Source: a virus (lineage: Duplodnaviria; Caudoviricetes). Taken from it: 64,000 nucleotides of DNA. The notes beneath the pieces were generated by a model. That model saw nothing but the letters and a program-made list of their open reading frames with translations. It was not told the DNA's origin and searched no databases. Made by a program: the position numbers and the translations under genes. Below, one piece after another: positions 8,267 to 52,561 of this stretch (position 1 is its first letter; each line of letters begins with the position of its first letter). The stretch spans positions 128,001 through 192,000 of IMG/VR virus record IMGVR_UViG_3300005512_000001; one strand, given 5' to 3'.

Positions 8267-8318
8267 ACATTCACGCTGTTTCTTGATGTATTTATTATTA
8301 TATAGATTAGGAGACAGC

Positions 8319-9569
8319 ATGTTTAATACAAACTTCGTATTTCATCCAGGGAAAATAGCAGTACTGCTAGATGGTGGTGCTGGTTCTAGCGGCAAAGGCA
8401 AATTAGCATCTTTTATAGGTGAAAACGCCAGTAATTGGCAATTTTGCTGCCAAGCATTTATGTCGAACGCCGCGCATTGGGTAATCGACGATGATGGCAA
8501 TAAATATCTATACCAAGCCCTAAACTCGGTGGCACACCTAAAAGACAAATATGAAAAGATGTATATCTGCGGTGGTGCTGTTTTAGAACTAGAGCCGCTT
8601 CTAAAAGAAATCGAGCTACATGGGCTGACACCAGATAAACTTGGCATACATCCTGTTGTTGCGATTGTGCAGCAAAAAGATGTGGATTATGAGCGTGGGG
8701 TGTGCAATTTTGAGGGCGATCCGTTTGACAATATTGTTCAATCAGATTGTATGAAGCTTGGTTCCACATTACATGGGGTCGGAGCGGCTAGAGCTAGAAG
8801 AATTTTGAGGCGGTCAGATATCTTGATTGCTAGAGACGTACCAGAGCTGCAACCTTTCCTATGTCAAACAGACTGTGAGATGATGGATAGGTTAGAACGC
8901 GGCCAAGCAGGGCTATTGGAGATAGCCCAAGGCTACCAGCTCGGCTATCTCACAAAGTTCTATCCCAAAACCACATCTCGCAATTGTACTGTCGCAGCCG
9001 GGTTGGATGATTGCGGACTACCACCATCCGTAGTACAAGATGTTCTTATTAACTTTAGAACATTCCCAATTAGAGTTAACAATAATAAATATATTCATGC
9101 TGAAACTGGTGCAGTGCTTACAGGCCAGGATATGGATGAGATGCGGGCCGCTGGCAATGCTGATATGATTAAGACACTCAAGGGCGACTCCGGTGGTTGT
9201 TATGATGACCAAGAAGAAGTGACATGGGAGTATATTACCGAATCAAGTGGCGTTAAGAATCTAGACCCAACAAGGGAGATTCGCGAGAGAACATCACTCA
9301 CAAAACTAGAACGTAGAGCATACACTTTTAGCAAGCAAAATCTACAAGATGCGATAAGGTTCAATCGTGGTAATGGCCACACATATCTATCTATCAATTT
9401 CATAAACTATGTTGATATGGCAATTGAAGGAAAACGTGGCGGGCCTGAGCAATTGACCGACAAAATCAAGACATGGATAGACGCAAATATTGAAATTATA
9501 AACCCAGAGACAGAGACTCTGAAATTCCTGGGTACCGGCGCATTAACAAACGATATGGTCGTATTATAA
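8319..9569 (+). CDS. purZ: N6-succino-2-amino-2'-deoxyadenylate synthase PurZ (adenylosuccinate synthetase paralog)
   Basis: PurA fold motifs NAAH, LGST..GVG, EIAQG, YP.TTSR, RTFPIRV. PurZ-type substitutions: GSSGKG (Ser where PurA has Asp in GDEGKG), TSLTKLERR (Leu where PurA has Arg in TTGRxRR), NFINY replacing the GTP-specific TKLD. AGGAG before ATG 8319. Confidence 0.85.
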   Translation: MFNTNFVFHPGKIAVLLDGGAGSSGKGKLASFIGENASNWQFCCQAFMSNAAHWVIDDDGNKYLYQALNSVAHLKDKYEKMYICGGAVLELEPLLKEIELHGLTPDKLGIHPVVAIVQQKDVDYERGVCNFEGDPFDNIVQSDCMKLGSTLHGVGAARARRILRRSDILIARDVPELQPFLCQTDCEMMDRLERGQAGLLEIAQGYQLGYLTKFYPKTTSRNCTVAAGLDDCGLPPSVVQDVLINFRTFPIRVNNNKYIHAETGAVLTGQDMDEMRAAGNADMIKTLKGDSGGCYDDQEEVTWEYITESSGVKNLDPTREIRERTSLTKLERRAYTFSKQNLQDAIRFNRGNGHTYLSINFINYVDMAIEGKRGGPEQLTDKIKTWIDANIEIINPETETLKFLGTGALTNDMVVL

Positions 9570-33406: not shown

Positions 33407-34786
33407 ATGAAAATGCCCGTAAAAGAAATTAAAGCATGCATAAAATACACAGGCCCAACTGAGTTTGTTCACTTACATTGTCATACCGTCTATTCAACTC
33501 TAGATGGTGTGCAGACGCCGGAACAACTATTTGCTGCATGTGCTGAACGCGAATGGCCCGCTATTGCGATCACAGAGCATGGTGTGTTATCGTCTGTACC
33601 TGATAATTATTTTGCGGCGAAAGCGAATGGGGTTAAGTATATCGCAGCTTGTGAGATATACTTTAACGACTTTGAGCCATTAAGGCAAGAAATTATAGCT
33701 AATGGCGATACACTTAGTTCTATAAAACAGTCTGACCCTATGTTGCATTCTAGGATAGTTCGTAATCGGCATCTTACATTATTGGCTAAGAACATGACGG
33801 GCTTCAGTAACCTTATTAGGATGGTTACTGAAGCCCATAAATTTGGATTTTATGGCAGACCTAGAATATGGTTTGATAAACTACTTGAATATAAAGAGGG
33901 TCTGATAGTATTGTCTGGATGTTTAAATGGGCCAGTATCTCATGAGATTAGGCAAGATATATTACGGTCGGACAATGGGCGTGGTGCTATAGATTATGTG
34001 TTGAAATTTAGAGAGGCATTCGGAGATGATTATTATCTAGAATTACAAATGCCATGTCTTCCGGATGCTGATGCTAAAGATAAACCAGCGTTTTGGGTAT
34101 TAGACAAAATCTCTAAGAAGTTCAACATTCCATCTGTTTTGACTAATGATGCGCATTATTTAAACCGGGAAGATTTTCAAATCCAAAAACTAATGATGGC
34201 CATTAGTCAGAATTTGACAATAGATTCTCCTGATTTATTCCACGTCAATAGTGATGAACAATTCCTAAAAACTAGGGCTGAGCTATATGATACTTTCAAG
34301 CGGCATGGTTATGACAAACATACTGGCGATGACCGATTCGAAATCATGTGCGACAATACGTTGGCTGTGGCTGGTAAATGTGAATATTTCGAACCAGACC
34401 TAGAGCCGAAAATACCCACTGGCGACGGCGACCCCGTAAAATTGAAACAAATGGTTGTTCGAGAGCTTATGCGTCGTGGTTTGCATAAATGTGCTGATAA
34501 ATATGTTGTTGATAACCGCGAAGTTACATATTTTGAACAAGCTAAGATTGAACTCAATAGGTTCATAGAAAAGGGGTTCGCTAGTTATTTTTTAATTACC
34601 CGAGATTTGATACAGTTTAGTCTATCTAATGGATGGCCTATAGGGCCTAGAGGTAGTGTGGGTGGCTCGCTAGTATGTTATTTGCTTGGCATCACAGAAT
34701 TAGACCCATTGAAATGGGGGCTATCGTTTAATAGGTTTTTATCGCCATCGCGTGGTGGCTACATGTTAAATATAAAGGCTGAATAA
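33407..34786 (+). CDS. dnaE: DNA polymerase III alpha, N-terminal half (PHP domain to first palm segment)
   Basis: HLHCHTVYSTLDG, TEHG, HLTLLAKN, TNDAHY, GFASYF, GPRGSVGGSLVCYLLGITELDP, FNRFLSPSR; ends before PDID. Confidence 0.9.
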   Translation: MKMPVKEIKACIKYTGPTEFVHLHCHTVYSTLDGVQTPEQLFAACAEREWPAIAITEHGVLSSVPDNYFAAKANGVKYIAACEIYFNDFEPLRQEIIANGDTLSSIKQSDPMLHSRIVRNRHLTLLAKNMTGFSNLIRMVTEAHKFGFYGRPRIWFDKLLEYKEGLIVLSGCLNGPVSHEIRQDILRSDNGRGAIDYVLKFREAFGDDYYLELQMPCLPDADAKDKPAFWVLDKISKKFNIPSVLTNDAHYLNREDFQIQKLMMAISQNLTIDSPDLFHVNSDEQFLKTRAELYDTFKRHGYDKHTGDDRFEIMCDNTLAVAGKCEYFEPDLEPKIPTGDGDPVKLKQMVVRELMRRGLHKCADKYVVDNREVTYFEQAKIELNRFIEKGFASYFLITRDLIQFSLSNGWPIGPRGSVGGSLVCYLLGITELDPLKWGLSFNRFLSPSRGGYMLNIKAE

Positions 34787-35247
34787 TGTCTAAATTTACA
34801 AAATTAGCTGCTATGCTTAGGCGAGAATCAGAATATTCGCATTGGGCATATGCAAATGGGTCCGCTGTGTGGTCCAAGATTGTTAAATGGTTGGCGGAAA
34901 TTGAAAAATCATCTGAATTAGACTTTGATGAGTATCAATCAAAATCGCGGGCGACAGCCATTTACCCAAACTTAAATGACAATATTGCATATCCGGCTTT
35001 AGGATTGGCCGGTGAGTCTGGGGAAGTATGTGAGAAAGTCAAAAAGATTATTCGTGATAAAGATGGTGTTATTGATGATGATGATAGGTCAGAATTAGCG
35101 AAAGAGCTTGGGGATGTTTTATGGTACCTATCTAATATAGCATCTGAACTTAATATAAGCCTAGGTGGTGTGGCAAGAATAAATATTGATAAACTTGAAA
35201 GCAGAATGAAGCGTAATGCGCTTCATGGTGATGGTGATAATCGATGA
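34786..35247 (+). CDS. mazG: MazG-like nucleotide pyrophosphohydrolase
   Basis: LGLAGESGEVCEKVKK...KELGDVLWY...NIDKL. Confidence 0.85.
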   Translation: MSKFTKLAAMLRRESEYSHWAYANGSAVWSKIVKWLAEIEKSSELDFDEYQSKSRATAIYPNLNDNIAYPALGLAGESGEVCEKVKKIIRDKDGVIDDDDRSELAKELGDVLWYLSNIASELNISLGGVARINIDKLESRMKRNALHGDGDNR

Positions 35248-35621
35248 ACAATAAAAATCTTATAGAGCGTTATCCAGAGGCTATTAATGTTCTTAAGCGT
35301 AGTTTACGTATATTGACATCGTTAAAAGTGGAACTTGCCGCTGCGGCGATATCGATGAAATTGGTGGATGTATTAGACTGTCTAGTTAAGAAAGATTTCA
35401 AACAGTCACTTGATGATTTATGGGCATGCTCACTAGTTGTGCAGCGCATTTTGTATGATGCGTTTTCGGAGAAGATTGGGAAAGAGTCTGAGCGAGCTAT
35501 TGTTGCGAAGTGCGCTGCTGATGATGGGGAGTTTGAAAAAGCCGCTAGGCAATATATACTAGCAAACACAGAAATTACTAAATTAACTGGGTTTAGTTCT
35601 CTATTTTTGGATAAAAAATGA
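35244..35621 (+). CDS. hypothetical protein
   Basis: Coupled ORF. Confidence 0.6.
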   Translation: MNNKNLIERYPEAINVLKRSLRILTSLKVELAAAAISMKLVDVLDCLVKKDFKQSLDDLWACSLVVQRILYDAFSEKIGKESERAIVAKCAADDGEFEKAARQYILANTEITKLTGFSSLFLDKK

Positions 35622-35998
35622 GGTCGATAGCATACATAGTTACAGGACGCCCTAAGAATAGGGCTGATTGTTTAGATTACGCATTTAAGCGTAATCTAAT
35701 GTATATTTCTTATGAGCTACATGTTAGGGGTGTTGCTAACGAAGATTATGCATATAAAGAATTATATGCGACATTCGTATGGAGATTTGATAGCACAACG
35801 ATAGCATATGATGAGGTGTATGGGGCATGGTATTATCATGAAGATGATGAAAGGAAAGGGATTAGCATTGAAAATGCGAACCGCCGGTTAAAACATGCAG
35901 TTGACGTTATAAATAGCAGAATCGGAACTGATTTACAATATGACAAGCAGTTTGAGCATAGCTTAATTATTGATGGAGATAACGATGAGGCAAATTGA
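35618..35998 (+). CDS. hypothetical protein
   Basis: Coupled ORF. Confidence 0.6.
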   Translation: MRSIAYIVTGRPKNRADCLDYAFKRNLMYISYELHVRGVANEDYAYKELYATFVWRFDSTTIAYDEVYGAWYYHEDDERKGISIENANRRLKHAVDVINSRIGTDLQYDKQFEHSLIIDGDNDEAN

Positions 35999-36401
35999 AA
36001 TTTTTGCAGCAAGTAGTAGAGACAATCAAATGGCAAGTTATGGTGCAGTGCTGCATGATGCCACTTTAGATGAGAAGTTTGAGTCATCGCAAATAATTGG
36101 TGATTATTCAAGGAACCAAGCAGATTTGATTGCTATGGTAATGGCATTGCGATGTGTTAAGACTGAATTTAAAGATGCCGAGATCATATTACATAGTCCG
36201 CCAGCATATGCCTCGCAGGTGGTTGAGAGGAACGACGATAACAAGTGGGTTTCAAACTCAAAAGCGAATATAGATATTGTGCGAGAGGTCCGGGGTTTGA
36301 TTGAAGAGTTTCCCAATTTGATGATTAAAAAATCTAGCGCCAACGAGGCGGCATTCAAAAGATGCATTGAGATTGCTAAAATATGTCTAAACAACAAGTA
36401 A
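35985..36401 (+). CDS. RNase HI-fold protein, apparently catalytically degenerate
   Basis: YGAVL, SRNQADLIAMVMAL, W...KANIDIV align with RNase HI, but the DG and TDS acidic residues are missing. Confidence 0.55.
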   Translation: MRQIEIFAASSRDNQMASYGAVLHDATLDEKFESSQIIGDYSRNQADLIAMVMALRCVKTEFKDAEIILHSPPAYASQVVERNDDNKWVSNSKANIDIVREVRGLIEEFPNLMIKKSSANEAAFKRCIEIAKICLNNK

Positions 36402-38899
36402 GTTGGAGCAAATTAAAAAAGCTCGCCACTATGCTTGCTGAGAAAAGGAAGCTTGATGCTGAGTATGTACGTAGACTCAAATTCGAGATAAAGGAAATTG
36501 AAAAACAGGGTGCCAATACATATTGGACCGAGCAATTTAATGATGGCAATAAATACGATACCAATAAAAACGGATTAGTATTGCCATGGTTAATTGGACT
36601 CACCCCTGTTGACCCCTTGAAGTCTGAACATGAGATTATTAGGTCGACCGATTTGCCAGATATTGATGTTGATTGTTTACCGCAGGCAAGAGATAAGATT
36701 AAAGCATATGCGGCTGAAAAGTATGGCAAAGAATATGTATGTAGTGTTGGCACATGGTTGACATATAAGTTTCGGTCTGCACTTCAGGATGCCGCGAGAG
36801 GTCTTGGTAGTGATTTCCGAGACGCGATGATAGTAACAAAAACGCTGCCTGACGATATAGATGACTTAAAAGATGGTGGGTATGCAGCATGCTCTAATTG
36901 CGGCAATAAGCATAAGCGTGTGCAATGTCCGTCATGTGGTAGTGTCGATACTGAAGGCATCACTATTGGCCAGATGTTGGAAGAACATGAAACTTTAAAT
37001 GCATATTATACACAGAATCCTGATGTTGTTGATAAAGCGGTGCTGCTTGTTGGTAAAATTAGGGCTATGGGCAAGCATGCAGGTGGCGTGATTATAACGA
37101 ATCGTAAGCTCATGGGCAATGTGCCGATGGGAATCAGTAAAGGGTCCGATGGCGAAGCACAATGGACTAGTATGTGGACTGAAGGCCGGAATACTCAACT
37201 ATCCAAACTTGGATATGTAAAATGGGACTTGCTTGGGTTAAAGACACTTCAATATATTCATGATGCTTGTAAGTTAATAGAACAGACACGCGGTTATAAA
37301 TTCAATATTCTACCGTGGCAGGACAATGACCCGACAGCTAATTTGGTTGGTTGGTATTTAGATGATAATGGCGAGCGGCATGATGTACAGATGGACGACC
37401 CAGATGTTTTTAAGATGATAAATGATTTAAGGGTTGAAACGTTATTCCAATTCGAGACCGACGTGCAACGCAATGTGCTGTCTAATGGTGTGAGAAATTA
37501 TTATGATTTACAGGTTTTTAATGCTATGGGCCATCCTGGGCCGATTGCATTTATACCAGAGTATGTGGAACGCAGAGATGATAATAATCAGACCTGGAAG
37601 CGCTTAGAACATCCAGATATAGCTGCGGAATTGGAAGATACGCACGGCATTATTGTTTATCAAGAGCAATTGCAGAAGATATGGCAAAAATTTGCCGGAT
37701 TTACAGCCCCCGAGGCTGAAAAAGCTAGAAAAGCTGTAGCCAAAAAATGGCGCGAACAGCTTAAGGGTATAGAGGCACATTGGAAGACTGGTGCGGCTAA
37801 AACATTAGGTGTCAAATGGGCTGATATAATGTGGGACCGCATGATTAGTTTTGGTAGGTATGCCTTCAACTTAAGCCATAGCTGTGCTTATATTTTGGTG
37901 GCGTATTGGTGTGCATGGTTAAAAGCACATTTCCCGCCAGAGTGGTGGGCAGCGGTAATGAGCGGGTGCCATCCCGATCGAATACCGAAATATATGAACA
38001 CCGCCAGGCTAGAAGGAGTGAAATTCGGTGCTATAAGTGCAGAGGAGCTTACTAAAAACTTTTCTGTGGCACCGAATTTAGAAGTAACACCAGGTCTTAC
38101 GAGCATTAAAGGAATTGGTGCTAAAGCTGCTGTGAAATTAGAAGGCCGCCATGCATTTAAAGACATAGATGAATTTATTACGGTTGTAGGCAAGGACAAA
38201 CGGGTAATGGAGCCTCTTATTAAATTAGGGGCATTTTCAAAATATCATCAAAATCTAAAAGCAACATGGATGTGGTATCAATTCAAGTATTGTACAAGCA
38301 AAGCAATAACGGCGTTAAAGAAGGAAATTAAAGAAAAATTAGTCGCACACTGGACCCCGGAAGCGATTGAAAAGCAACGGAAGCTTTTTGTAGATGGTTT
38401 TAAAGCAGAATTTCCAAAACGCAAAGTTCCAGCGAAGACGCTAAATTGGAAGCCAAAACCAGACCCCACCCGGAAGAATGTGATGGCGTTGTTTGAGGAT
38501 GACTTCTCTTTGAAAGAGCGGTTGGATTTTGAAAGGCAGTATTTAGGATATTATTGGCACTCGCCATTAGACCTCTATGATATTGATGGGTTGACAATAC
38601 AATCTGTTAAAGAAGCGATTGGCAATAGAGGTAGGATTGAAGTAGTGGTTGAGAGTCTGACTATTGGTAAGACTAAAACCCAAAAGAGGATGGGTAGGCT
38701 GAAAGTAACAGATGGGTTAGCGGACTGTACGATTATCTTATGGGCCAACCAGTTAGAAGTGCTGGGGCCATATTTAAAAGAAGGTGTCGGCATACGATTA
38801 GATGTTAAGTATGACCCATCTAGAAATAGTTTTACGTTAGGGCAACGTGATACAGTGCCGATTTTGCTGAGGCCGAGGTCTGATGAAAAATCAGAATAA
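36383..38899 (+). CDS. dnaE: DNA polymerase III alpha, C-terminal half (catalytic palm, fingers, HhH, OB fold) with Zn-ribbon insertion
   Basis: LPDIDVD, GKHAGGVII, VKWDLLGL, LFQFE, THGIIVYQEQ, YAFNLSHSCAY, WLKAHFP, IKGIG, ERQYLGYY; CSNC..CPSC insert. Confidence 0.9.
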   Translation: MSKQQVSWSKLKKLATMLAEKRKLDAEYVRRLKFEIKEIEKQGANTYWTEQFNDGNKYDTNKNGLVLPWLIGLTPVDPLKSEHEIIRSTDLPDIDVDCLPQARDKIKAYAAEKYGKEYVCSVGTWLTYKFRSALQDAARGLGSDFRDAMIVTKTLPDDIDDLKDGGYAACSNCGNKHKRVQCPSCGSVDTEGITIGQMLEEHETLNAYYTQNPDVVDKAVLLVGKIRAMGKHAGGVIITNRKLMGNVPMGISKGSDGEAQWTSMWTEGRNTQLSKLGYVKWDLLGLKTLQYIHDACKLIEQTRGYKFNILPWQDNDPTANLVGWYLDDNGERHDVQMDDPDVFKMINDLRVETLFQFETDVQRNVLSNGVRNYYDLQVFNAMGHPGPIAFIPEYVERRDDNNQTWKRLEHPDIAAELEDTHGIIVYQEQLQKIWQKFAGFTAPEAEKARKAVAKKWREQLKGIEAHWKTGAAKTLGVKWADIMWDRMISFGRYAFNLSHSCAYILVAYWCAWLKAHFPPEWWAAVMSGCHPDRIPKYMNTARLEGVKFGAISAEELTKNFSVAPNLEVTPGLTSIKGIGAKAAVKLEGRHAFKDIDEFITVVGKDKRVMEPLIKLGAFSKYHQNLKATWMWYQFKYCTSKAITALKKEIKEKLVAHWTPEAIEKQRKLFVDGFKAEFPKRKVPAKTLNWKPKPDPTRKNVMALFEDDFSLKERLDFERQYLGYYWHSPLDLYDIDGLTIQSVKEAIGNRGRIEVVVESLTIGKTKTQKRMGRLKVTDGLADCTIILWANQLEVLGPYLKEGVGIRLDVKYDPSRNSFTLGQRDTVPILLRPRSDEKSE

Positions 38900-39967: not shown

Positions 39968-40854
39968 AAATCATACTTGGTGGTGGTTTAATAGGTTTAA
40001 TCGCACGTGATATATTAGGTAGTGATTGGATTATTATCCCGATTGGAAGAAGTAGGTATTATTCGTTCGACCCACCATTAGCAGATAATTATGTTGTCAG
40101 AGATGACCTGATTGATGAGTATATGCGGGAGTATACTATCGTGCCATGCCTATACAGAATTGGGTATTCTTATGGCGGGCAGATATTATTTAATACTACC
40201 ATACCGTTATCGCCGTACTTAGATAAGCTATATGGCGGCAATGTGCCACCGCATGCATCATCGTATTGGGGCAATAGGATTGATTTGTGGGGTTATGGTA
40301 ATTGTATTGATATGTATATGCGATTACAAGAAAAATACAAAGATGAAATATTAAATAATAATAATATATATGGGGTTCCCAGTAAGATTAGCGACCATAC
40401 CATAACGGCCAATAAGCAGTTCGAATATGATGAGATTATATCGACTGTGCCACTCCCGGCGTTGTTGGGATGGATGAATGTTAGTTGGCCAGAGTTAAAA
40501 GCTAAGGACGTCTATTGTTATCATGTTCGCACCGACTGTCTTGATTTTGAAGGTGCGACACATCTGTTCGTGGCCGACCCGGAAATTGAATTCTTCAAAG
40601 CTAGCATGATAAATAAGCAGAATTACATCTTTTATGCTCAGAAGAAAATAGAACAACCTGGGCAATATTTCATGGGGTTTATGAAGAGGTTTGAGCTAAT
40701 AGCGGAGACATCTGTGCCAGAATCTATATGTTGTGGCCATATCCCTGCTATATCGGACATAGATGATGCAGACATAACATGTGTCGGTAGCTCTGCAGTA
40801 TGGGATGATTGTTTAGATGTTGGTAGCTGTATAAAAAGAATATTAAAATTATGA
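39964..40854 (+). CDS. FAD/NAD(P)-binding oxidoreductase-like protein
   Basis: IILGGGLIGL, YDEIISTVPL, C-terminal CVGSSAVW (amine oxidase/UDP-galactopyranose mutase-like). Confidence 0.6.
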   Translation: MKIILGGGLIGLIARDILGSDWIIIPIGRSRYYSFDPPLADNYVVRDDLIDEYMREYTIVPCLYRIGYSYGGQILFNTTIPLSPYLDKLYGGNVPPHASSYWGNRIDLWGYGNCIDMYMRLQEKYKDEILNNNNIYGVPSKISDHTITANKQFEYDEIISTVPLPALLGWMNVSWPELKAKDVYCYHVRTDCLDFEGATHLFVADPEIEFFKASMINKQNYIFYAQKKIEQPGQYFMGFMKRFELIAETSVPESICCGHIPAISDIDDADITCVGSSAVWDDCLDVGSCIKRILKL

Positions 40855-41483
40855 GTGGACTAGATGCTGCTAATGAACGTTATAAGATGTTGGCACATTT
40901 GAAAGATGCGTGTGCTGAATGTAAAATGTGTGAGTTAGGTTGGAGAAAAGCAACACGCGGTGCTTATAATTACAACCCACATGTTTTTAGCAACTACACT
41001 CCTATGTCGCCTACTGCGAAGTTCATGATAGTTGGCCAGAATCCGGGATGGAATGAAGTAAAGGAAGGAATGCCATTTATTGGTGCGGCTGGCAAAAATT
41101 TTGATGATGCATTACTAAAAAATACCAGATGGACACGTGGTGATTTTTATATTACCAATAGCATTAAATGCTTTACAAAAGATAATAAGCCGCCATCACA
41201 CCAGAATTTAAATAGGTGTGAGCCATTCTTAAGAATGGAAATATCGATTATTAAACCGAAGCTAGTAATAACTTTTGGGTCTGTAGCATTTGGGATATTG
41301 TGTGGCTGTAAATTCTCAGACAATATAGGCAAAATTGTTGATAGCGACAAATTTGGGGTTAAGGTCTTCACCACATATCACCCATCGCCACTGAATCTGG
41401 CCAATCCACAACGGAAGAAAAAATTTTATCAAGATATTCGTACTATTGGTAAAATTATGGACCACTATCTGTCACCATTCTAG
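40851..41483 (+). CDS. uracil-DNA glycosylase family 4
   Basis: CAECKMCEL, VGQNPG..E...GMPFIGAAG, YITNSIKC, TYHPS. Confidence 0.9.
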   Translation: MSGLDAANERYKMLAHLKDACAECKMCELGWRKATRGAYNYNPHVFSNYTPMSPTAKFMIVGQNPGWNEVKEGMPFIGAAGKNFDDALLKNTRWTRGDFYITNSIKCFTKDNKPPSHQNLNRCEPFLRMEISIIKPKLVITFGSVAFGILCGCKFSDNIGKIVDSDKFGVKVFTTYHPSPLNLANPQRKKKFYQDIRTIGKIMDHYLSPF

Positions 41484-45002: not shown

Positions 45003-45269
45003 ATGCCATATTATGAAATACGACAATTTGATAAGATTAAATTACGTACCACTAAAAATATCCGTTACTTATCGGCACCGCCCAATGAGATGCCAAGCCC
45101 GCATGGTATCTGGACTGTAGTGGCTAATATAAATAAGGATTTATTAATTTGTAAAGGCGATGCTATATGTAGAGTGCCAGTCTCAGATGTTGTTATCGCC
45201 GGACGATCAGAAATAGACCGTATACTGGAGAGAATAGATGGCAAAAAAGCAAAAGCCAAATCAGAGTAG
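45003..45269 (+). CDS. hypothetical protein
   Basis: First ORF of the recA-helicase operon. Confidence 0.6.
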   Translation: MPYYEIRQFDKIKLRTTKNIRYLSAPPNEMPSPHGIWTVVANINKDLLICKGDAICRVPVSDVVIAGRSEIDRILERIDGKKAKAKSE

Positions 45270-46929
45270 AGAATTTGACAATAAAGAAGATGTCATGAAA
45301 GCTATTGATGACAAATTTGGGAATGGTGCTATAACATTGGGAGCTGGACCGGCACTTGATGTTCCATCTATTAGTACTGGATCGGCTTCACTTGATTTGG
45401 CATTAGGGGTATGGGGAATGCCAAAAGGCCGTATCGCTGAAGTATATGGCCCAGAGAGTAGTGGTAAGACCACATTATGCTTATCAATAATCAAGGAGTG
45501 TCAGAAGCAAGGTGGCGTAGCTGCTTTTGTTGATGCTGAACATGCGTTAGACCCAACATGGGCAAGCAATATAGGTGTTGATATTGACAACCTAATGATT
45601 AGCCAGCCATCATCTGGTGAAGAGGCATTAAGTATTGTTGAGATGCTGGCCGGTTCAAAACAGGTTGATCTTATTGTGGTTGATTCAGTTGCTGCGTTGA
45701 TTCCTCAAGCTGAAATTGATGGTGAGATGGGCGATAGGCAGATTGGTGCCCAGGCTCAATTAATGAGCAAGGCTATGCGTAAGCTTGTTAGTATAACCAA
45801 TAAATCCAATTGTACAATTATATTTATCAACCAAATTAGAATGAAGATTGGTGTTATGTTCGGTTGTTTGCATGGCGATACATTGATTAATTTTGTTGAT
45901 GGTAGTGCATTGCCAATTAAAGATGTTGTTGAAAAGAAAATTGAAGGCGATGTCTGGTGTTATGACGAAGGAAGCAATAACTTTGTTGGACGCAAGATTA
46001 TTGATTGGCACAATAATGGTGATGTTCTTGATAAATGCGATTTTCTGTCTATATTGTTGAGGGGGCCAGGCAATGGCAATGGGCGTATGAATATATGTGT
46101 TACGCCAAATCATCGCGTTTTGACCGATAATGGATGGGCTGAAGCCGGTGACTTGATAATTGGTGATAGAATAATGACGAAGCAAAAGAATATTCTATCT
46201 GGTGATTCGCATTGTATGAGAAGGAAATTACCAGATGGCGTAGATGATTGTAGGGAGTGTACACTACATGTGACTGGCCAATATAGCACCACCTATGCGG
46301 AAGTGGTATCTATTAGAACGGCTAGTAGCAGACAGTTTAGAACAAAAGGGAAATATGATATAACTGTTGATGGCTGCCACAATTATTCCGCTGGTGGTCG
46401 CCATAATGGTGTGATTGTTCATAATTCGCCGGAGACCACACCAGGCGGCCGGGCATTGAAATTCTATTCTTCCATTAGACTTGATATTCGGCGTGCCGGT
46501 GCGATCAAGAAGGGCGATGATAACATTGGGAACTCAATTAAGGTAAAAGTTGTTAAAAATAAGGTTGCGCCGCCATTTAGGCAAGCTGAATTCGGACTAT
46601 ATTTTGGGAGAGATGGATATCCGAGTGGTATTGATTATGCTAGTTCGTTGGTTGATATTGCAGTTGATGTCGGCATTATCAAACAACAAGGGTCGTGGTA
46701 CAATTATGGCGAAATGAGACTTGGGAATGGCCAAGAGAATGCCTATGGCATGATTCGTAGTAATATTGATTTGATGGCAGAGATTAGCGATAAAGTGCGA
46801 GCGGCTTTTAGTCCTGATGGTGTCGATACGGATACAGAAGATACAGAAGATAAAGATATAGAAGATAAAGATATAGAAGATAAAGATATAGAAGATAAGT
46901 CTGATGTATTAGAGGATTTCGAAGAATGA
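45238..46929 (+). CDS. recA: RecA recombinase with mini-intein and acidic repeat tail
   Basis: ISTGSASLDLALG, GPESSGKTT, DAEHALDP, VDSVAAL, FINQIR.KIGVMFG|...|SPETTPGGRALKFYSS, KNKVAPPF. Confidence 0.95.
   Translation: MAKKQKPNQSREFDNKEDVMKAIDDKFGNGAITLGAGPALDVPSISTGSASLDLALGVWGMPKGRIAEVYGPESSGKTTLCLSIIKECQKQGGVAAFVDAEHALDPTWASNIGVDIDNLMISQPSSGEEALSIVEMLAGSKQVDLIVVDSVAALIPQAEIDGEMGDRQIGAQAQLMSKAMRKLVSITNKSNCTIIFINQIRMKIGVMFGCLHGDTLINFVDGSALPIKDVVEKKIEGDVWCYDEGSNNFVGRKIIDWHNNGDVLDKCDFLSILLRGPGNGNGRMNICVTPNHRVLTDNGWAEAGDLIIGDRIMTKQKNILSGDSHCMRRKLPDGVDDCRECTLHVTGQYSTTYAEVVSIRTASSRQFRTKGKYDITVDGCHNYSAGGRHNGVIVHNSPETTPGGRALKFYSSIRLDIRRAGAIKKGDDNIGNSIKVKVVKNKVAPPFRQAEFGLYFGRDGYPSGIDYASSLVDIAVDVGIIKQQGSWYNYGEMRLGNGQENAYGMIRSNIDLMAEISDKVRAAFSPDGVDTDTEDTEDKDIEDKDIEDKDIEDKSDVLEDFEE
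45865..46425 (+). mobile_element. mini-intein (187 aa) in RecA, no intact endonuclease
   Basis: FG|CLHGDT ... VTPNHRV ... KYDITV ... IVHN|SPE; no LAGLIDADG motif seen. Confidence 0.88.
46846..46898 (+). repeat. 3.5 x 15-bp tandem repeat GAAGATAAAGATATA (EDKDI)
   Basis: Directly visible at the recA 3' end. Confidence 0.9.
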
Positions 46930-47264
46930 GCGCACCACTGTTTGAAATAGAAGATGTAGTGTATTTGGTTGAGTCCGCGAAAGTGGGGTCAATTGAATCT
47001 TACCAGATAAGCGGGGTTAGGCAAGGCCCAAGTGGCAGTTGGATGTATAGGATATCAGTAGCCCAACGTCCTCCGAATGGTGCGCCGACATATGGTGACC
47101 GCAACACTTTAAGAAGAACATTAGATTTTGAGTTGTCGGAATCTGAATTGACCACATATTGTGCGGCGCTTGACCTTGCGGAGATTGCTGCGATGTCAAA
47201 TTTGGCCGCTATACGGAGTTTGAAGGCAGCACATTGTACTGATGGAACAGGCGGTACTGGATGA
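46926..47264 (+). CDS. hypothetical protein
   Basis: Coupled ORF. Confidence 0.6.
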   Translation: MSAPLFEIEDVVYLVESAKVGSIESYQISGVRQGPSGSWMYRISVAQRPPNGAPTYGDRNTLRRTLDFELSESELTTYCAALDLAEIAAMSNLAAIRSLKAAHCTDGTGGTG

Positions 47265-48607
47265 TTGAAGCATTAAAACGGGCTGATCATAATGCTAAAC
47301 AACCGTTTGGTGAATATGAAGAGGAAGCGATAGTATCGCTTCTTATCGACCACCCGGAATTCTTCACAAATGTTGCTAGATTTCTTACGCATGAATTATT
47401 CAATCGGACTGAAGTACAATATGTAATAGCCCACATCACAGAATATTATGAGCAATATGGGGTGTTTCCGACCAGAGGCATATTGGTTGATAGTATTAAA
47501 CACAGTCTCACTGTCGACGACATAGCATACCAAGATATTATCGACATAGCATCAAGACCCTCAAACCCGCGAGAGGTTCCTTGGCTTAAAGATATAATTT
47601 TGAAATGGGCTAGGTCTAAAGCATATGGCTTAATATATGATGTTGATACTATCGCCAAGTATAAAGATGGTAATTTTGAAGCTATAGAGGCTGTGTTCAA
47701 TCAGGCACGCAATATACAAGATATCGGAAGTGGTACACTCTGGTTTTTTGATGAGTTAGAAAAACTGTTTGCCCACGACCTGATAGAAAAATTTACGACT
47801 GGTTTTGCGCAATTAGATGCATGTATGCATGACGACCAAGATGAGCGTGGCCCAGCACGCAAAGAAATGGTAGTTTGGATGGCACCGACTGGTGTTGGCA
47901 AGTCTATTATGCTGATTAATAATGCGATTTCCAATGTATTGAGGGGCAGGAACGTGTTGTATATCACATTGGAATTGTCAGATGCAATGTCTGCTTTACG
48001 CGGGATGGGTGTTATATCGAATAAACCAATAAAGCGTAGATTCGATTTGAAGAATGAGATTATAGCAATAATAAATCACATTAAAAGTGATGGAAATATT
48101 GGTGACCTTGCGTTTCATGAATTTCCACCAGATGAGATATCAGTTGATGAAATCTATGCATTAGTTGACCATTTAAAAAGGTCAAAAGGCTGGGTGCCAG
48201 ATATCATATGTATTGATTATCTTGAATTGATGATTAGTAGACGCCAATCTGATAATGCTGATTCATATATGAAGCAAAAAGGTGTATCCACTCAAGTTAG
48301 AGGGCTTGCGAAGACTGAAAATGTGTTGGTATTCACCGCGACACAGACAAATAGAGGTGGAAACGATTCCGAGATTATTGATGTAACAAAGATTGCTGAG
48401 AGCTATGGTAAGTCAATGGCGATGGATTATTTGATAAGTCTTAATCAAACCCGCGAAGAATACCAATCAGTTTTAGACCATAATGGCATAGCAGTGCATC
48501 CAGCGCCAGCGCGAATGTATATAGCTAAGAATAGGAATGGAGCTAAATTTGTCACTATTCCTGTGAAGATTAATTATTCAACAATGAAGATACAGGAGAT
48601 GACATGA
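47261..48607 (+). CDS. replicative helicase, DnaB/T4 gp41-like
   Basis: TTGFAQLD, APTGVGKS, YITLEL, IDYLELM, TATQTNR, IAESYGK, KNRNG. Confidence 0.9.
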   Translation: MIEALKRADHNAKQPFGEYEEEAIVSLLIDHPEFFTNVARFLTHELFNRTEVQYVIAHITEYYEQYGVFPTRGILVDSIKHSLTVDDIAYQDIIDIASRPSNPREVPWLKDIILKWARSKAYGLIYDVDTIAKYKDGNFEAIEAVFNQARNIQDIGSGTLWFFDELEKLFAHDLIEKFTTGFAQLDACMHDDQDERGPARKEMVVWMAPTGVGKSIMLINNAISNVLRGRNVLYITLELSDAMSALRGMGVISNKPIKRRFDLKNEIIAIINHIKSDGNIGDLAFHEFPPDEISVDEIYALVDHLKRSKGWVPDIICIDYLELMISRRQSDNADSYMKQKGVSTQVRGLAKTENVLVFTATQTNRGGNDSEIIDVTKIAESYGKSMAMDYLISLNQTREEYQSVLDHNGIAVHPAPARMYIAKNRNGAKFVTIPVKINYSTMKIQEMT

Positions 48608-48933: not shown

Positions 48934-49295
48934 AACGTTATTTTATATGCTTAGAATGTATAGAACGCTCGACCGGCAAATCAGCATATGATTTGCCGGT
49001 CGAGCAATTTAATGAGATTCGAGCTAAGTTAGCGTTTGAATCTGAAACGGCTGTATGCACTTGTTGTGGTAGTAAAAATTTGAAACCTGTGCTTGGCTTA
49101 GAGACTTCCTATGTAAGAGGATACGGTTTTGCCGATAAAAAGGGTGTCAAACGTGATATGGATATTCACGCTATGACCACTGATAGAGACCCTTATAAAG
49201 AGCATCGTCAGCTTGGCGAATCTAGAGAAGTGGTAACTAAATTGCAGCGAGACAGAGAGCATCATAAAAAGCCTAAGACTATTGGCATGGGCTAG
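48930..49295 (+). CDS. FmdB-like zinc-ribbon protein
   Basis: YFICLEC...CTCCGSKNL..YVRGYG. Confidence 0.55.
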   Translation: MKRYFICLECIERSTGKSAYDLPVEQFNEIRAKLAFESETAVCTCCGSKNLKPVLGLETSYVRGYGFADKKGVKRDMDIHAMTTDRDPYKEHRQLGESREVVTKLQRDREHHKKPKTIGMG

Positions 49296-49311
49296 TAGTA
49301 TTGTAAATAAC

Positions 49312-50478
49312 ATGCTATATGTCTATACGTTATTCGATGAACGACGAGATTCATATCCATTAATGTCGGCCATTTATGATGGCGAACTTAGTAAGCTAGA
49401 ATTTTTCACATTTTATTTGCCAGGCACCAAGAAATCGATTTACGATATAGAAGCTACCTGTGATCGATTTTCTAAAATCATATCAAATAATAATGTGATG
49501 CTCAATGATTTCAAGCAGCATTGCGTTGCATTCGCACCGAAGCCCAATTGCAAGGTGTTTGATGTCGACCTCCCGACTTTCACGCCGAAGGATATAAAAT
49601 CGTGTCGTAAGAATATAGCTACTATTATAAATAAAATGAAGCTGATAAAACCACGATACTGGCATCTAGTGCGTGCTATGGCTTCTGAGGTATATGGGCA
49701 TCTACAAACACGTGGGGCTATGTACTCGTACCAATTGAGACACTCAATTTGGGGCCGGGTTTATTCTGGTAGGAGCAAGACTAGTGGGTTTAATATACAA
49801 GGTCTTGGAGAATGCTATTTATCTAATATTAATGGCGATGACATACTTATAAACTTCGACTGGATTGCTGCTGATATGAGAGCAATTGCAATCATGAGTG
49901 GCGATAAGAAGTTAAATATGTCTTTCGATGAGAGTGACCCATATATAGTATTGTTAAACCATTTGAATTCAGGGGTTCAAAACGACAAACTGCGCAGGGA
50001 TGAAGCTAAGAGATTAATGTTCTCATCTATCTATTCTTTCGATGATGATAATCCAGCATTGGATTTTTATAATGGTTTTAGGTCTTGGATACAGGTATGC
50101 CGCAATAGATTAAGAGAAGATAAATATCTCAAGAGCATACTAGGCAGACGATTCTATGTTGGTAGGGGTCGCACTGAACGCTCTGCGTTTAATGCGATGG
50201 TACAGGGCTCAGTTGCTAATGCTATGCAGATATGTATTAGAAAAGTATGGGAATTGTTTCCAGATAGCATATTGACAGAAAACCATGACTCATTAGTAGT
50301 GACATCCAAGAAATCTGATTTAGCCTTCAAATTGCATGAGGTTGCCAAAATAATGACACAACCATTTTGTGGTATTATAAAAAGTAACCCGCAATTTCCG
50401 ATTAAAATTAGCATCGGACGTAAATATAAAGGCTGGAAGGAATATAAAAGATATGACAACTGTGGGCAGGTCAAATAA
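49312..50478 (+). CDS. family A DNA polymerase catalytic domain without exonuclease domains
   Basis: SGRS, motif A NFDWIAADMR..SGD, motif B RDEAKRLMFSSIY, SILGRR, AFNAMVQGSVA, motif C NHDSL. Confidence 0.75.
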   Translation: MLYVYTLFDERRDSYPLMSAIYDGELSKLEFFTFYLPGTKKSIYDIEATCDRFSKIISNNNVMLNDFKQHCVAFAPKPNCKVFDVDLPTFTPKDIKSCRKNIATIINKMKLIKPRYWHLVRAMASEVYGHLQTRGAMYSYQLRHSIWGRVYSGRSKTSGFNIQGLGECYLSNINGDDILINFDWIAADMRAIAIMSGDKKLNMSFDESDPYIVLLNHLNSGVQNDKLRRDEAKRLMFSSIYSFDDDNPALDFYNGFRSWIQVCRNRLREDKYLKSILGRRFYVGRGRTERSAFNAMVQGSVANAMQICIRKVWELFPDSILTENHDSLVVTSKKSDLAFKLHEVAKIMTQPFCGIIKSNPQFPIKISIGRKYKGWKEYKRYDNCGQVK

Positions 50479-51181: not shown

Positions 51182-52561
51182 ATGAAGAATAATGATGTGA
51201 TAGACGCAAAATGTAGTGTTTGCAACACCATTTCCAAAATAAAATGCGAATCATATAAGCGGACCCTAAAGCGTAGCGGTAAATATCGATGTTTATCTTG
51301 CGCAACTTCACAGGCTCTCAAAAAATCACCACGCAATACAGATAAGCTGATTGGATGGTCCAAGAGCGATGCAGGGCGAGCTGCAGCATCGCGTGTACTA
51401 AAGCAGAGGTGGGAGGATAACTACGACGAACTTTTGGGGTATATTAATGCTAATTGGAAAAACCAAGAGACTATCAACAAGCAAAAAGAAATACATGAAT
51501 TTTCCAATCGCCCTGACCTCCGTGTAAAATTTAGGAAGATATGGGCGTCAAAAGAATATCGGGAAGCTGTTAGTGATGGTGTTCGAAGATTGTGGGAAAA
51601 CCCAAAATATAGAGAAAAAATGGCTGCGTCTAGGATTAGGTATAGAGGCATTGTATCTAATATCCAGAAAATATTGTATTCATTGCTTGATGACTTGGGG
51701 ATAAAGTATTATAGAGAATATAATGGGCATAGTGATCCACAATGTAAAATCGGACCATGGACTTTTGATTGTGTAGTCCCGAGAAGCAATAAACCAGACC
51801 TATTAATAGAGTGCCAAGGCGATTATTGGCATTCTCTGTCAGAAAATATGCAGCGTGACCGGCAAAAGGCATCATATATCTCAAATAATTTGAGTGGTCG
51901 ATATGAATTGAAGTATATTTGGGAACATGAATTTTATGCGAAAGACCGAATACGAATGCTTTTGGCGTATTGGGTTGGTTTGAAGCGACATGATATTATT
52001 GACTTCAATTTTAAAGATGTTGCTATTAGAAAATGCGTAGCTAAAGATTATAAATTGTTGTTGTCTAAATACCACTATCTTGCGAATGCTGGGAGAGGAG
52101 GGATTGCTTATGGGGCATATGTGGGAGATAGACTTGCCTCTATATGTGTTTTCTCACCACTACCTAGACAGAATATTGCTAAATCACTAGGCTGTTTAGA
52201 TAAAGAGGTGCGTGATTTATCTAGATTATGTATTCACCCTAATTATCAAAAGAAAAATTTTGCTTCTTGGTTTGTGAGCCGATGTATAAAACTACTCCCA
52301 CCACAATATGCAATAGTCATCGCATATTGTGATACTACATTTGGGCATAACGGGGTTGTCTATGAAGCGTCTAATTTTAAATTAGATAAAGAAATTAGAC
52401 CCGATTATTGGTACACAAAGCCAGATGGATGGATAATGCATAAAAAGACGTTGTATGATCGTGCTGTGAAAATGGGGATTAAAGAAAGGGAATTTGCTGA
52501 ATTGCATGGATATATTAAAGTAAAGGGTGATAAGAAATATAGATATGTTTTTAAAAGATAA
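51182..52561 (+). CDS. DUF559/Vsr-like endonuclease fused to Mom/Hef-like GNAT-fold domain (copy 1)
   Basis: NUMOD-like W-x-x-P-x-Y-R helical repeats; WTFDC...IECQGDYWH...RD..K...YIWEHE; KYHYL...DLSRLC...AYCDTTFGHNGVVYEASNF...PDYWY. Confidence 0.75.
   Translation: MKNNDVIDAKCSVCNTISKIKCESYKRTLKRSGKYRCLSCATSQALKKSPRNTDKLIGWSKSDAGRAAASRVLKQRWEDNYDELLGYINANWKNQETINKQKEIHEFSNRPDLRVKFRKIWASKEYREAVSDGVRRLWENPKYREKMAASRIRYRGIVSNIQKILYSLLDDLGIKYYREYNGHSDPQCKIGPWTFDCVVPRSNKPDLLIECQGDYWHSLSENMQRDRQKASYISNNLSGRYELKYIWEHEFYAKDRIRMLLAYWVGLKRHDIIDFNFKDVAIRKCVAKDYKLLLSKYHYLANAGRGGIAYGAYVGDRLASICVFSPLPRQNIAKSLGCLDKEVRDLSRLCIHPNYQKKNFASWFVSRCIKLLPPQYAIVIAYCDTTFGHNGVVYEASNFKLDKEIRPDYWYTKPDGWIMHKKTLYDRAVKMGIKEREFAELHGYIKVKGDKKYRYVFKR

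What the first reader, a model, noticed from the sequence alone, without database searches (positions are those of the whole stretch)
33407..38899. DnaE split into two intein-free genes, with a degenerate duplicated junction
Seen: gene 1 has the PHP domain with intact metal ligands plus GPRGS and FNRFLSPSR, then stops. Gene 2, about 1.6 kb and four genes later, has PDIDVD and the third Asp (KWD). Neither junction shows intein motifs. Gene 2 starts with a decayed copy of the gene 1 end (RRLKFEIKEIEKQG..YW...LVLPWLIGLTPVDPLK vs AKIELNRFIEKGF..YF...LVCYLLGITELDPLK) that lacks the GS and FxRFL motifs. Known: those motifs bind the dNTP triphosphate, and cyanobacterial split DnaE is joined by trans-splicing. 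Inference: the active site is assembled from two polypeptides, possibly by domain swapping. This enzyme is the candidate Z-accepting replicase.
Basis: partly seen in the sequence, partly recalled or inferred. Interest (0 to 1): 0.8.

Follow-up and report, generated by a model that had tools for sequence, protein, structure and literature searches.

The report
Two-gene DnaE polymerase of jumbo phage
This 341-kb uncultured phage, like a large clade of relatives, encodes its bacterial-type (DnaE) DNA polymerase as two proteins cut through the catalytic centre with nothing to splice them together, so the active site is most likely built from both chains; that has not been shown experimentally for this polymerase family.

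Summary
Gene 1 (33407-34786, 459 aa) has a PHP domain with all nine metal ligands, plus the nucleotide-binding part of the palm (GS motif, RF...R). Gene 2 (36383-38899, 838 aa) has the PDIDVD and KWD aspartates, fingers, HhH and an OB fold. AlphaFold models of the two tile Thermus Pol III alpha: residues 5-461, then 460-1122.

Gene 2 also has an extra 86-residue helical head. It resembles the gene 1 end weakly but collinearly. It is not decaying: it is conserved across the family and present in every relative examined.

None of 37 related virus loci has the halves fused. Gene 2 lies 0.5-4.4 kb downstream in 35 of them. No fused form turned up in an exhaustive protein search. I found no Hint domain and no intron.

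Each half keeps exactly the catalytic residues the other lacks, and a relative has an intein inserted at the gene 1 GS motif. Best reading: a non-covalent heterodimer with a composite active site.

All 20 relatives tested also carry a PurZ-like gene and a small PolA-like gene, and none has PolB. The Z-DNA replicase idea is therefore plausible but untested.

The closest published case is the PHP-less minimal split Pol III alpha of group 2.2 jumbo phages. This scan has already found the same split on other genomes.

The parts
33407..34786 (+). Gene 1, DnaE N-subunit (459 aa): PHP domain plus the nucleotide-binding first part of the palm
   Evidence: Pfam PHP 2.4e-37 and DNA_pol3_alpha profile positions 5-98. 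The AF2 model has pLDDT 90 and aligns to Thermus Pol III alpha 5-461 (Z 35.7, rmsd 6.6, 388 aligned).
33461..34396 (+). PHP domain (about residues 19-330) with all nine metal-ligand positions: H22, H24, D33, H58, E83, H122, C172, D248, H250
   Evidence: Direct reading. Conservation. Structural matches to PHP phosphoesterases over model residues 17-330.
34646..34657 (+). PRGS, the GS (triphosphate-binding) motif of the Pol-beta-like palm, residues 414-417
   Evidence: R415, G416, S417, G420 and S421 are invariant in 70 homologues. A relative (P0056) has a mini-intein inserted exactly at GPRG|S.
34727..34753 (+). FNRFLSPSR motif, residues 441-449 (canonical FERFLNPER)
   Evidence: R443, F444 and R449 are invariant. 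It aligns to Thermus 450-458.
34754..34783 (+). Gene 1 C-terminal tail GGYMLNIKAE, specific to the split forms; candidate docking strand
   Evidence: G450 and G451 are invariant and the tail is conserved. The same RGG.ML ending occurs in distant split N-halves but not in full-length DnaE. It has pLDDT below 50 in the monomer model.
34786..35247 (+). MazG-like nucleotide pyrophosphohydrolase. Its start overlaps the gene 1 stop (TAATG).
   Evidence: Pfam MazG 2.4e-11 and phrog_229 5.9e-38. Junction sequence.
35244..35621 (+). Small ORF (125 aa) of unknown function, conserved between the two halves in relatives
   Evidence: BLASTP to the ORFs at the same position in L010 (47% identity), L011 and L007. 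No Pfam or PHROG hit.
35618..35998 (+). Small ORF (126 aa) of unknown function. No counterpart found among the intervening ORFs of the five relatives compared.
35970..36401 (+). RNase H-fold protein (143 aa) lacking two catalytic carboxylates. It overlaps the gene 2 start and is conserved at this position in relatives.
   Evidence: phrog_531 1.2e-8. Atlas structural TM 0.82 to RNase H. In the alignment to E. coli RNase HI, D10 is replaced by A and D70 by P. Homologues in L010, L011, L012 and L007.
36383..38899 (+). Gene 2, DnaE C-subunit (838 aa): helical head, metal-binding part of the palm, thumb, fingers, HhH and OB fold
   Evidence: Pfam DNA_pol3_alpha 12-260, finger and HHH_6. The AF2 model has pLDDT 90. 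Model residues 87-830 align to Thermus 460-1122 (Z 21.9, rmsd 4.7, 584 aligned).
36383..36646 (+). Head of gene 2 (residues 1-88): an all-helical module, collinear with but only weakly similar to the gene 1 segment 345-436. It lacks the GS and FxRFL motifs.
   Evidence: similarity. (conservation). (helices 8-21, 26-42, 45-53, 66-70, no strand; pLDDT 80-94). (not included in 10 of 11 structural alignments to DnaE).
36656..36673 (+). PDIDVD, catalytic aspartates (D95, D97), residues 92-97
   Evidence: P92, D93, D95 and D97 are invariant. It aligns to Thermus PDIDTD 461-466.
37220..37228 (+). KWD, third catalytic Asp (D282) with K280
   Evidence: K280 and D282 are invariant. Position read.
38585..38878 (+). 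C-terminal OB fold (residues 735-832)
   Evidence: Structural matches to RPA and SSB OB folds, Z 10-11.

Best explanation
The phage makes a DnaE-type (family C) DNA polymerase as two separate subunits from one tightly packed six-gene block.

Subunit N (gene 1) carries a PHP domain with a full metal site, so it is the likely proofreading exonuclease. It also carries the first part of the Pol-beta-like palm, including the GS turn and the RF...R arginines, which are known to hold the dNTP triphosphate.

Subunit C (gene 2) carries the three catalytic aspartates, the thumb, the fingers, the HhH domain and the OB fold.

The two subunits associate non-covalently, so one active site is built from both chains. 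In this model the strand and GS turn of subunit N complete the catalytic sheet of subunit C, next to the DxD strand. The conserved but unstructured tail of subunit N and the conserved helical head of subunit C form the interface.

The head is probably a remnant of a partial duplication of the palm entry that was kept for a structural role.

Shown: the anatomy, the exact tiling of the canonical fold, the complementary conservation, the absence of splicing elements, and the conservation of the split. Inferred: the heterodimer itself, the interface, the origin by duplication, and the role as the replicase.
For: - Tiling. The gene 1 model matches Thermus alpha 5-461 and gene 2 residues 87-830 match 460-1122. 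Sequence alignments agree.
- Complementary invariant residues. Gene 1 has R415, G416, S417, G420, S421, R443, F444 and R449. Gene 2 has D93, D95, D97, K280 and D282.
- A mini-intein sits at GPRG|S in a relative's N-half. Interruptions at about the same gene 1 position occur in four IMG/VR loci. Inteins typically sit in functionally essential motifs (general knowledge).
- The split is ancient and universal in the clade. There are 758 gene 1 homologues at E <= 0.001, and nearly all of the 120 best are about 430-530 aa long. In the exhaustive search there is no fused form before the drop to full-length DnaE at 40-43% identity.
- Of 37 IMG/VR loci, 35 have gene 2 downstream on the same strand, 0.5-4.4 kb away. 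None is fused. The five further contigs fetched from gene 1 homologues of more than 50% identity show the same layout.
- The head has no beta strand, so it cannot supply the strand that precedes the GS turn.
- The gene 1 tail is conserved, yet it has pLDDT below 50 when modelled alone. That is typical of a segment that folds on a partner.
- The stop and start codons overlap all along the block.
- No Hint domain and no intron were found. The overlap of the two sequences would be duplicated in any spliced product.
- Family searches found no PolB, beta clamp or DnaX-type (DNA_pol3_delta2) clamp loader in the genome.
Against: - No complex prediction and no biochemistry. The interface is inferred.
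- One structural alignment (5fkv_A, Z 18.3) starts at model residue 38, aligned to E. coli residue 327. In the monomer model the head might therefore lie near the canonical palm-entry position, where it would compete with the gene 1 segment.
- A conserved roughly 400-aa PolA-like gene exists, so DnaE is not the only candidate polymerase.
- No sliding clamp was detected, which is unusual for a processive DnaE replicase.
Confidence: 0.78

Rival explanations
1. Gene 2 is a self-sufficient polymerase whose own head completes the palm without a GS motif. Gene 1 is a separate accessory subunit, a PHP proofreading exonuclease or pyrophosphatase, and its palm fragment serves only as a docking piece.
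For: The head is collinear with the canonical palm entry. One structural alignment places residue 38 near the homologous E. coli helix (row 11). The PHP site is intact. Separate proofreading subunits are normal for E. coli Pol III (general knowledge).
Against: The GS turn and the arginines are invariant in gene 1 and absent from the head. The head has no strand. An intein targets the gene 1 GS motif in a relative. Ten of eleven DnaE structural alignments leave the head out. To my knowledge the GS motif is close to universal in Pol-beta-fold nucleotidyltransferases.
Confidence: 0.1
2. The two products are joined covalently by protein trans-splicing, RNA splicing, or translational bypass of the 1.6-kb insert.
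For: Inteins are active in this clade. RecA in this window carries one, and relatives have inteins in both DnaE halves. Cyanobacterial DnaE is trans-spliced (general knowledge).
Against: Gene 1 ends 10 residues after R449 with no Hint blocks. The gene 2 head is helical, not a Hint fragment, and has no HN plus Cys/Ser/Thr junction. No intron family matches. The insert holds four conserved or annotated ORFs, and its content differs between relatives. A joined product would contain the palm entry twice.
Confidence: 0.03
3. The head of gene 2 is not a copy of the palm entry at all. It is an unrelated helical domain whose likeness to the gene 1 end is chance or convergence.
For: hhalign probability is only 20%. 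A head profile finds no DnaE in the PDB, and only 8 of 44 heads touch PF07733.
Against: The motifs are collinear, the spacing up to PDIDVD is right, and the alignment to Thermus 359-527 is continuous. The enrichment over shuffled heads is about 200-fold. BLASTP gives E = 6e-5.
Confidence: 0.15
4. Assembly artefact or a recently broken pseudogene.
For: None found.
Against: The same split occurs in hundreds of independent metagenome contigs at 41-72% identity, with both halves under strong conservation.
Confidence: 0.01

Closest known systems
Minimal split DNA polymerase III alpha of group 2.2 (T4-like) jumbo phages (Iyer, Anantharaman, Krishnan, Burroughs, Aravind 2021, Viruses 13:63, PMC7824862)
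   Same: A Pol-beta-fold family C catalytic module encoded as two proteins, cut between the N-terminal NTP-binding subdomain and the C-terminal Mg- and template-binding subdomain. It is predicted to reconstitute one enzyme and has never been tested biochemically.
   Different: That version is minimal, with no PHP or other Pol III domains. Its genes lie far apart, and it accompanies a family B polymerase. Here the N-subunit has a full PHP domain and the C-subunit has fingers, HhH and OB. The genes are 1.6 kb apart in one block, no PolB is present in this phage or in 20 relatives, and gene 2 has an extra conserved head.
Cyanobacterial split DnaE joined by the DnaE split intein (general knowledge)
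   Same: DnaE is encoded in two genes.
   Different: There the cut lies much further along the protein and the halves are ligated by a split intein. Here the cut is in the palm, just before PDIDVD, and no Hint fragments are present.
Fractured genes with split inteins and a free-standing endonuclease (Dassa et al. 2009, PMC2677866)
   Same: A gene for an essential enzyme is interrupted by other ORFs, in metagenomic phage-like DNA.
   Different: No split intein halves flank the break in this window. The intervening ORFs are a MazG, an RNase H-fold protein and small proteins of unknown function, not a homing endonuclease.
One-piece DnaE of Thermus aquaticus, E. coli and M. tuberculosis (PDB 2HPI/3E0D, 2HNH, 5LEW/7PU7)
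   Same: The same domains in the same order. The two models tile the solved structures. The PHP ligand positions match those of the M. tuberculosis DnaE1 PHP exonuclease site as I recall them (my knowledge, not aligned here).
   Different: Two polypeptides, an extra head, a special RGG.ML tail, and no detectable beta-clamp gene.

Membership tests
Family C DNA polymerase, DnaE type (Pol III alpha) | N-terminal PHP domain | tested here: met
   Pfam PHP at 129 bits against a cut-off of 26.4. All nine ligand positions are present. Structural Z is 35.7 to 3e0d_A.
Family C DNA polymerase, DnaE type (Pol III alpha) | Pol-beta-like palm with a GS motif and three catalytic Asp | tested here: met
   All are present and invariant, but they are shared between two chains: GS and the arginines in gene 1, and D95, D97 and D282 in gene 2.
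Family C DNA polymerase, DnaE type (Pol III alpha) | Fingers, HhH and C-terminal OB fold | tested here: met
   PF17657 at 108.6 bits and PF14579 at 31.7 bits against a cut-off of 25.6. OB fold at Z 10-11.
Family C DNA polymerase, DnaE type (Pol III alpha) | Catalytic subunit is one polypeptide | tested here: not met
   Two ORFs lie 1,597 nt apart here, and the halves are separate in all 37 related loci. No fused form appears in the exhaustive search.
Split-intein (trans-spliced) DnaE | Hint N-fragment after the N-extein, and a C-fragment ending in HN followed by Cys/Ser/Thr | tested here: not met
   Gene 1 ends 10 aa after R449. The gene 2 head is helical and has no intein Pfam hit.
Minimal split Pol III alpha of group 2.2 jumbo phages | Cut between the NTP-binding and the metal-binding subdomains of the palm | tested here: met
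   The cut lies between FxRFLxPxR and PDIDVD. Compared with the paper's description only. Their sequences were not at hand.
Minimal split Pol III alpha of group 2.2 jumbo phages | No PHP or other Pol III domains; accompanies a family B polymerase; genes far apart | tested here: not met
   PHP, fingers, HhH and OB are all present. There is no PolB in this genome or in 20 relatives. The genes are 1.6 kb apart.
Fractured gene (split intein plus endonuclease) | Split intein halves flanking a homing endonuclease gene | tested here: not met
   No Hint or endonuclease family was found among the four intervening ORFs.
Z-DNA replicase (DpoZ-like function) | Preference for dZTP over dATP | not testable with these tools
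   Only context is available. A PurZ-like gene is present here and in 20 of 20 relatives. No HD_3 or YfbR-type dATPase was found.

The most novel reading that the evidence does not exclude
A whole clade of uncultured jumbo phages (about 230-410 kb) replaces adenine with 2-aminoadenine and replicates that DNA with a two-subunit DnaE. The nucleotide-binding half of its active site sits on the PHP proofreading subunit, apart from the catalytic-metal half. The split, together with a MazG or Mom gene placed between the halves, would be part of how the phage controls which purine enters its DNA. This would be a third, unrelated type of Z-DNA replicase, after DpoZ and PrimPol.
Probability: 0.25. Interest if true: 0.85.

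Novelty: new variant of a known kind. Interest (0 to 1): 0.62.

Why it matters
To my knowledge, and in the papers I could search, family C replicases have only been studied as single catalytic chains. Here a full DnaE, PHP domain included, is cut between the triphosphate-binding and metal-binding halves of the active site, and the cut has been kept for a long evolutionary time in hundreds of phages.

- It is a natural experiment in how the Pol-beta-fold active site can be assembled in trans.
- It offers a handle for engineering split polymerases.
- It bears on proposals that the ancestral Pol III was modular (Iyer et al. 2021).
- Every relative tested also has a PurZ-like gene and no PolB. This enzyme is therefore the leading candidate for copying a possibly Z-substituted jumbo genome, which the Z-DNA literature I could search does not mention.

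Tried and rejected
- DNA-level search of the phage collection with the whole locus found nothing. tblastn found only relatives at 35% identity or less, so the collection holds no cultured relative.
- A single-sequence pattern scan of viral contigs with gene 2 found nothing. The alignment-based scan worked.
- An Rfam search for introns across 30-42 kb gave only a sub-threshold CrcZ hit.
- The promoter and terminator scan gave promoter-like counts at the chance level and no convincing terminator between the genes.
- A head-only profile against the PDB gave nothing for DnaE, and head-only scans against Pfam were only marginal.
- A PDB sequence search with the MazG returned only spurious polyubiquitin hits.
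- Atlas look-alikes for the 125-aa ORF were uninformative: the model has pLDDT 0.49 and scores were 0.87 or less.
- The genome search could not reach the metagenome contigs fetched by the look-up of encoding contigs.
- I could not place the head in 3D relative to the palm.
- A literature search for DnaE or Pol III in PurZ phages found nothing.

Full report
WHAT IS THERE

The window is bases 128001-192000 of a 341,434-bp virus record with direct terminal repeats, that is, a complete jumbo phage. Six ORFs on the + strand run from 33407 to 38899, and each stop overlaps or abuts the next start:
- gene 1, 459 aa
- a MazG-like pyrophosphohydrolase
- a 125-aa ORF of unknown function
- a 126-aa ORF of unknown function
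- a 143-aa RNase H-fold protein
- gene 2, 838 aa

Pfam and PHROGs agree on the two large genes:
- Gene 1 is PHP plus the first 98 of 260 profile positions of the Pol III alpha catalytic domain.
- Gene 2 is profile positions 12-260 of that domain, plus fingers and HhH.

THE CUT

Against Thermus aquaticus Pol III alpha, gene 1 aligns to residues 6-458, ending at FERFLNPER. Gene 2 residues 5-157 align to 359-527, and PDIDVD falls on PDIDTD.

AlphaFold2 models built on 70-sequence alignments are confident, with mean pLDDT about 90 for both. The structural matches are:
- Gene 1 model residues 18-450 match Thermus 5-461 (Z 35.7, rmsd 6.6, 388 aligned).
- Gene 2 model residues 87-830 match Thermus 460-1122 (Z 21.9, rmsd 4.7, 584 aligned).

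The two proteins therefore tile a canonical DnaE with no gap. The break lies between the triphosphate-binding part of the palm and the strand that carries the first two catalytic aspartates.

THE EXTRA HEAD

The first 86 residues or so of gene 2 are surplus to this tiling. They form four helices and no strand, with pLDDT 80-94. In 10 of 11 DnaE rows the structural alignment starts only at residues 87-92.

The head is collinear with gene 1 residues 345-436: a helix of the type LxFEIxEIEKQG, a Y-W pair, then GLVLPWLxGxxxxDP. The GS turn and the FxRFL motif are gone.

The likeness is weak, though above chance:
- BLASTP gives E = 6e-5.
- hhalign gives E = 0.0011 and probability 20%.
- An HMM of gene 1 tails hits 21 of 106 real heads at E < 1e-3, against 1 of 1,060 shuffled heads.
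- On its own the head is barely recognisable as DnaE.

I take it as a probable (about 85%) remnant of a partial duplication.

It is not decaying:
- Its conservation (0.61 mean top-residue frequency) lies between that of the catalytic core (0.69-0.71) and the C-terminal part (0.54).
- It has invariant residues E35, Q42, L65 and P78.
- The gene 2 match starts within query residues 2-28 in all 35 related loci that have a gene 2 match, so at least most of the head is there.
- It is present in a relative whose N-half is only 47% identical.
- In three distinct relatives (L024, L036, and L039/L044) it is encoded as its own ORF, apart from the catalytic part.

IS THE SPLIT REAL AND OLD?

Yes.
- Gene 1 has 758 homologues at E <= 0.001. 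Nearly all of the best 120 are about 430-530 aa long and 53-73% identical, on contigs of up to 408 kb.
- Gene 2 has a matching family of 830-950 aa proteins that cover 98-99% of the query.
- In the exhaustive search of 1.8 billion representatives, the first 24 or so hits are N-halves. The complete ones end at query position 455-458, and the longer ones carry inteins. Scores then drop sharply to full-length DnaE at 40-43% identity. No fused form appears.
- Of 37 IMG/VR loci of the clade, 35 have gene 2 downstream on the same strand, 0.5-4.4 kb away. None is fused. In two, gene 2 lies outside the 7-kb flank.
- Six metagenome contigs (L007, L009-L012, L014) show one to four ORFs between the halves. 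A seventh (L013, 4.4 kb) shows no C-half on the short contig.
- A homologue of the 125-aa ORF and of the RNase H-fold ORF recurs at this position. The MazG is replaced by a Mom-like gene in two relatives.

NO JOINING DEVICE

- Gene 1 stops 10 residues after R449.
- The head is helical and has no Hint blocks.
- No intein family hits either junction.
- No intron family matches in 30-42 kb.
- Because the two sequences overlap, a spliced product would carry the palm entry twice.

Inteins do work in this phage group. RecA in this window has one. Relatives have them in both DnaE halves, including one inserted exactly at GPRG|S of gene 1. Interruptions recur at about gene 1 residues 416-418 and 248, and at about gene 2 residues 496-498.

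HOW IT MOST LIKELY WORKS

Each half has kept, as invariant residues, exactly what the other lacks:
- Gene 1: R415, G416, S417, G420, S421, R443, F444, R449.
- Gene 2: D93, D95, D97, K280, D282.

From established knowledge of the Thermus ternary complex (3E0D) and of Pol-beta-fold nucleotidyltransferases, the GS turn and the arginines hold the triphosphate, and the aspartates hold the metals.

Three further points fit a composite site:
- The head has no strand, so it cannot replace the strand that precedes the GS turn.
- The last 15 residues of gene 1 are highly conserved, and the RGG.ML ending marks even distant split N-halves. Yet they are unstructured in the monomer model, as expected for a segment that folds on a partner.
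- The PHP site has all nine ligands, so the N-subunit is probably also the proofreader.

I therefore favour, at about 0.78, a non-covalent N/C heterodimer with a composite active site, made in matched amounts from one translationally coupled block.

The main rival, at about 0.10, is that gene 2 works alone, with its head filling the palm, and gene 1 is only an accessory PHP subunit. One structural alignment that starts at model residue 38 keeps this alive (row 11).

THE Z-DNA CLAIM

For the claim:
- The genome has a PurA-family gene (8256-9569). Its best solved relatives are six PDB entries deposited as adenylosuccinate synthetase (6FM1, 6FKO and others), which I recall as the phiVC8 PurZ. The S-2L PurZ (7ODX) comes next.
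- That gene also hits the PurZ PHROG.
- Family searches found no PolB, beta clamp or DnaX-type clamp loader.
- They also found no HD_3 or YfbR-type dATPase.
- All 20 relatives tested have a PurA/PurZ-family gene, and none has PolB.

Against taking it as settled:
- All 20 relatives also have the roughly 400-aa PolA-like gene found here at 49282-50478.
- These are traits of one clade, not independent associations.
- Nothing tested here addresses base selectivity.

The split DnaE is the leading candidate replicase, but not the only polymerase.

COMPARISON WITH THE LITERATURE

The closest published case is the minimal split Pol III alpha that Iyer et al. (2021, PMC7824862) predicted in group 2.2 jumbo phages.
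- Same: the principle of the cut, between the NTP-binding and the Mg-binding subdomains.
- Different: that version has no PHP or other domains, its genes lie far apart, and it sits beside a PolB.

Other comparisons:
- Cyanobacterial split DnaE and the 'fractured genes' (PMC2677866) use split inteins, which are absent here.
- A marine jumbo-phage survey noted PF07733 as a marker of one genome cluster but did not mention a split.
- I found no paper on this full-length two-gene DnaE, or on DnaE in PurZ phages.
- Earlier reports of this scan describe the same split on other genomes. My results agree with them.

VERDICT

This is a real, ancient and widespread two-subunit form of DnaE: a new variant of a known kind, with the mechanism inferred and not yet shown.

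Noticed in passing
window 34786-35247: A MazG-like pyrophosphohydrolase sits directly between the two DnaE halves, with its start overlapping the gene 1 stop. In two relatives (L007, L009) a 611-629-aa Mom-like gene occupies that slot instead. Both are nucleotide or DNA-modification functions placed inside the polymerase block.
   Followed up: partly
window 35970-36401 and 35244-35621: An RNase H-fold protein lacks two catalytic carboxylates (D10 replaced by A and D70 by P, relative to E. coli RNase HI). It and a 125-aa protein of unknown function recur between the halves in relatives. They may be accessory subunits of the polymerase.
   Followed up: partly
window 8256-9569: A PurZ-like adenylosuccinate synthetase homologue with a GSSGKG motif. 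Its best PDB matches are entries deposited as adenylosuccinate synthetase that I recall as the phiVC8 PurZ, followed by the S-2L PurZ. A PurA/PurZ-family gene is present in 20 of 20 relatives that carry the split DnaE. No HD_3 or YfbR-type dATPase was found in this genome.
   Followed up: partly
window 49282-50478: A short (398 aa) PolA-like protein matches only the C-terminal part of the family A profile. It is conserved at 33-41% identity in 20 of 20 relatives, so it is a second candidate polymerase of the clade.
   Followed up: partly
window 45238-46929: RecA carries an intein (PF14890 hit at residues 285-396). A DnaB-like helicase follows at 47261-48607.
   Followed up: no
window 51182-52561: A Mom-family protein fused to an MTES_1575-type restriction-endonuclease-like domain.
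   Followed up: no
window 40851-41483: A 210-aa protein hits polymerase-associated PHROGs (phrog_4335, phrog_17). Relatives have a UDG-family protein at the same position downstream of gene 2 (L007, L009-L011).
   Followed up: no
L036:9331-10800; L039:4864-5500 (same as L044); L024:9168-9900: In these relatives the head of gene 2 is a separate ORF of about 131-141 aa in L036 and L039/L044, and ends at a stop in L024. It carries a beta-rich extension of about 50 aa. In L036 and L039/L044 a small ORF of the form MKI.KIN..RG... follows, and the reading frame breaks right at PD|IDxD. L036 also has a 307-aa ORF on the opposite strand in between. This looks like the scar of a mobile cassette, not a canonical intein.
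   Followed up: partly
L034, L037, L040, L049 (about gene 1 residues 416-418); L048-L050 (about residue 248); L015, L032, L033, L041, L048, L050 (gene 2 residues 496/498): Recurrent insertions of 1-2 kb occur at the same catalytic motifs of both halves: the GS turn, the PHP ligand D248, and the FN|SH finger motif. Some proteins of the family carry intein and LAGLIDADG Pfam domains.
   Followed up: no
L007, L009, L011, L012 upstream of gene 1: A Volactin-family (actin-like) gene and several glycosyltransferases lie upstream of the DnaE block in relatives.
   Followed up: no
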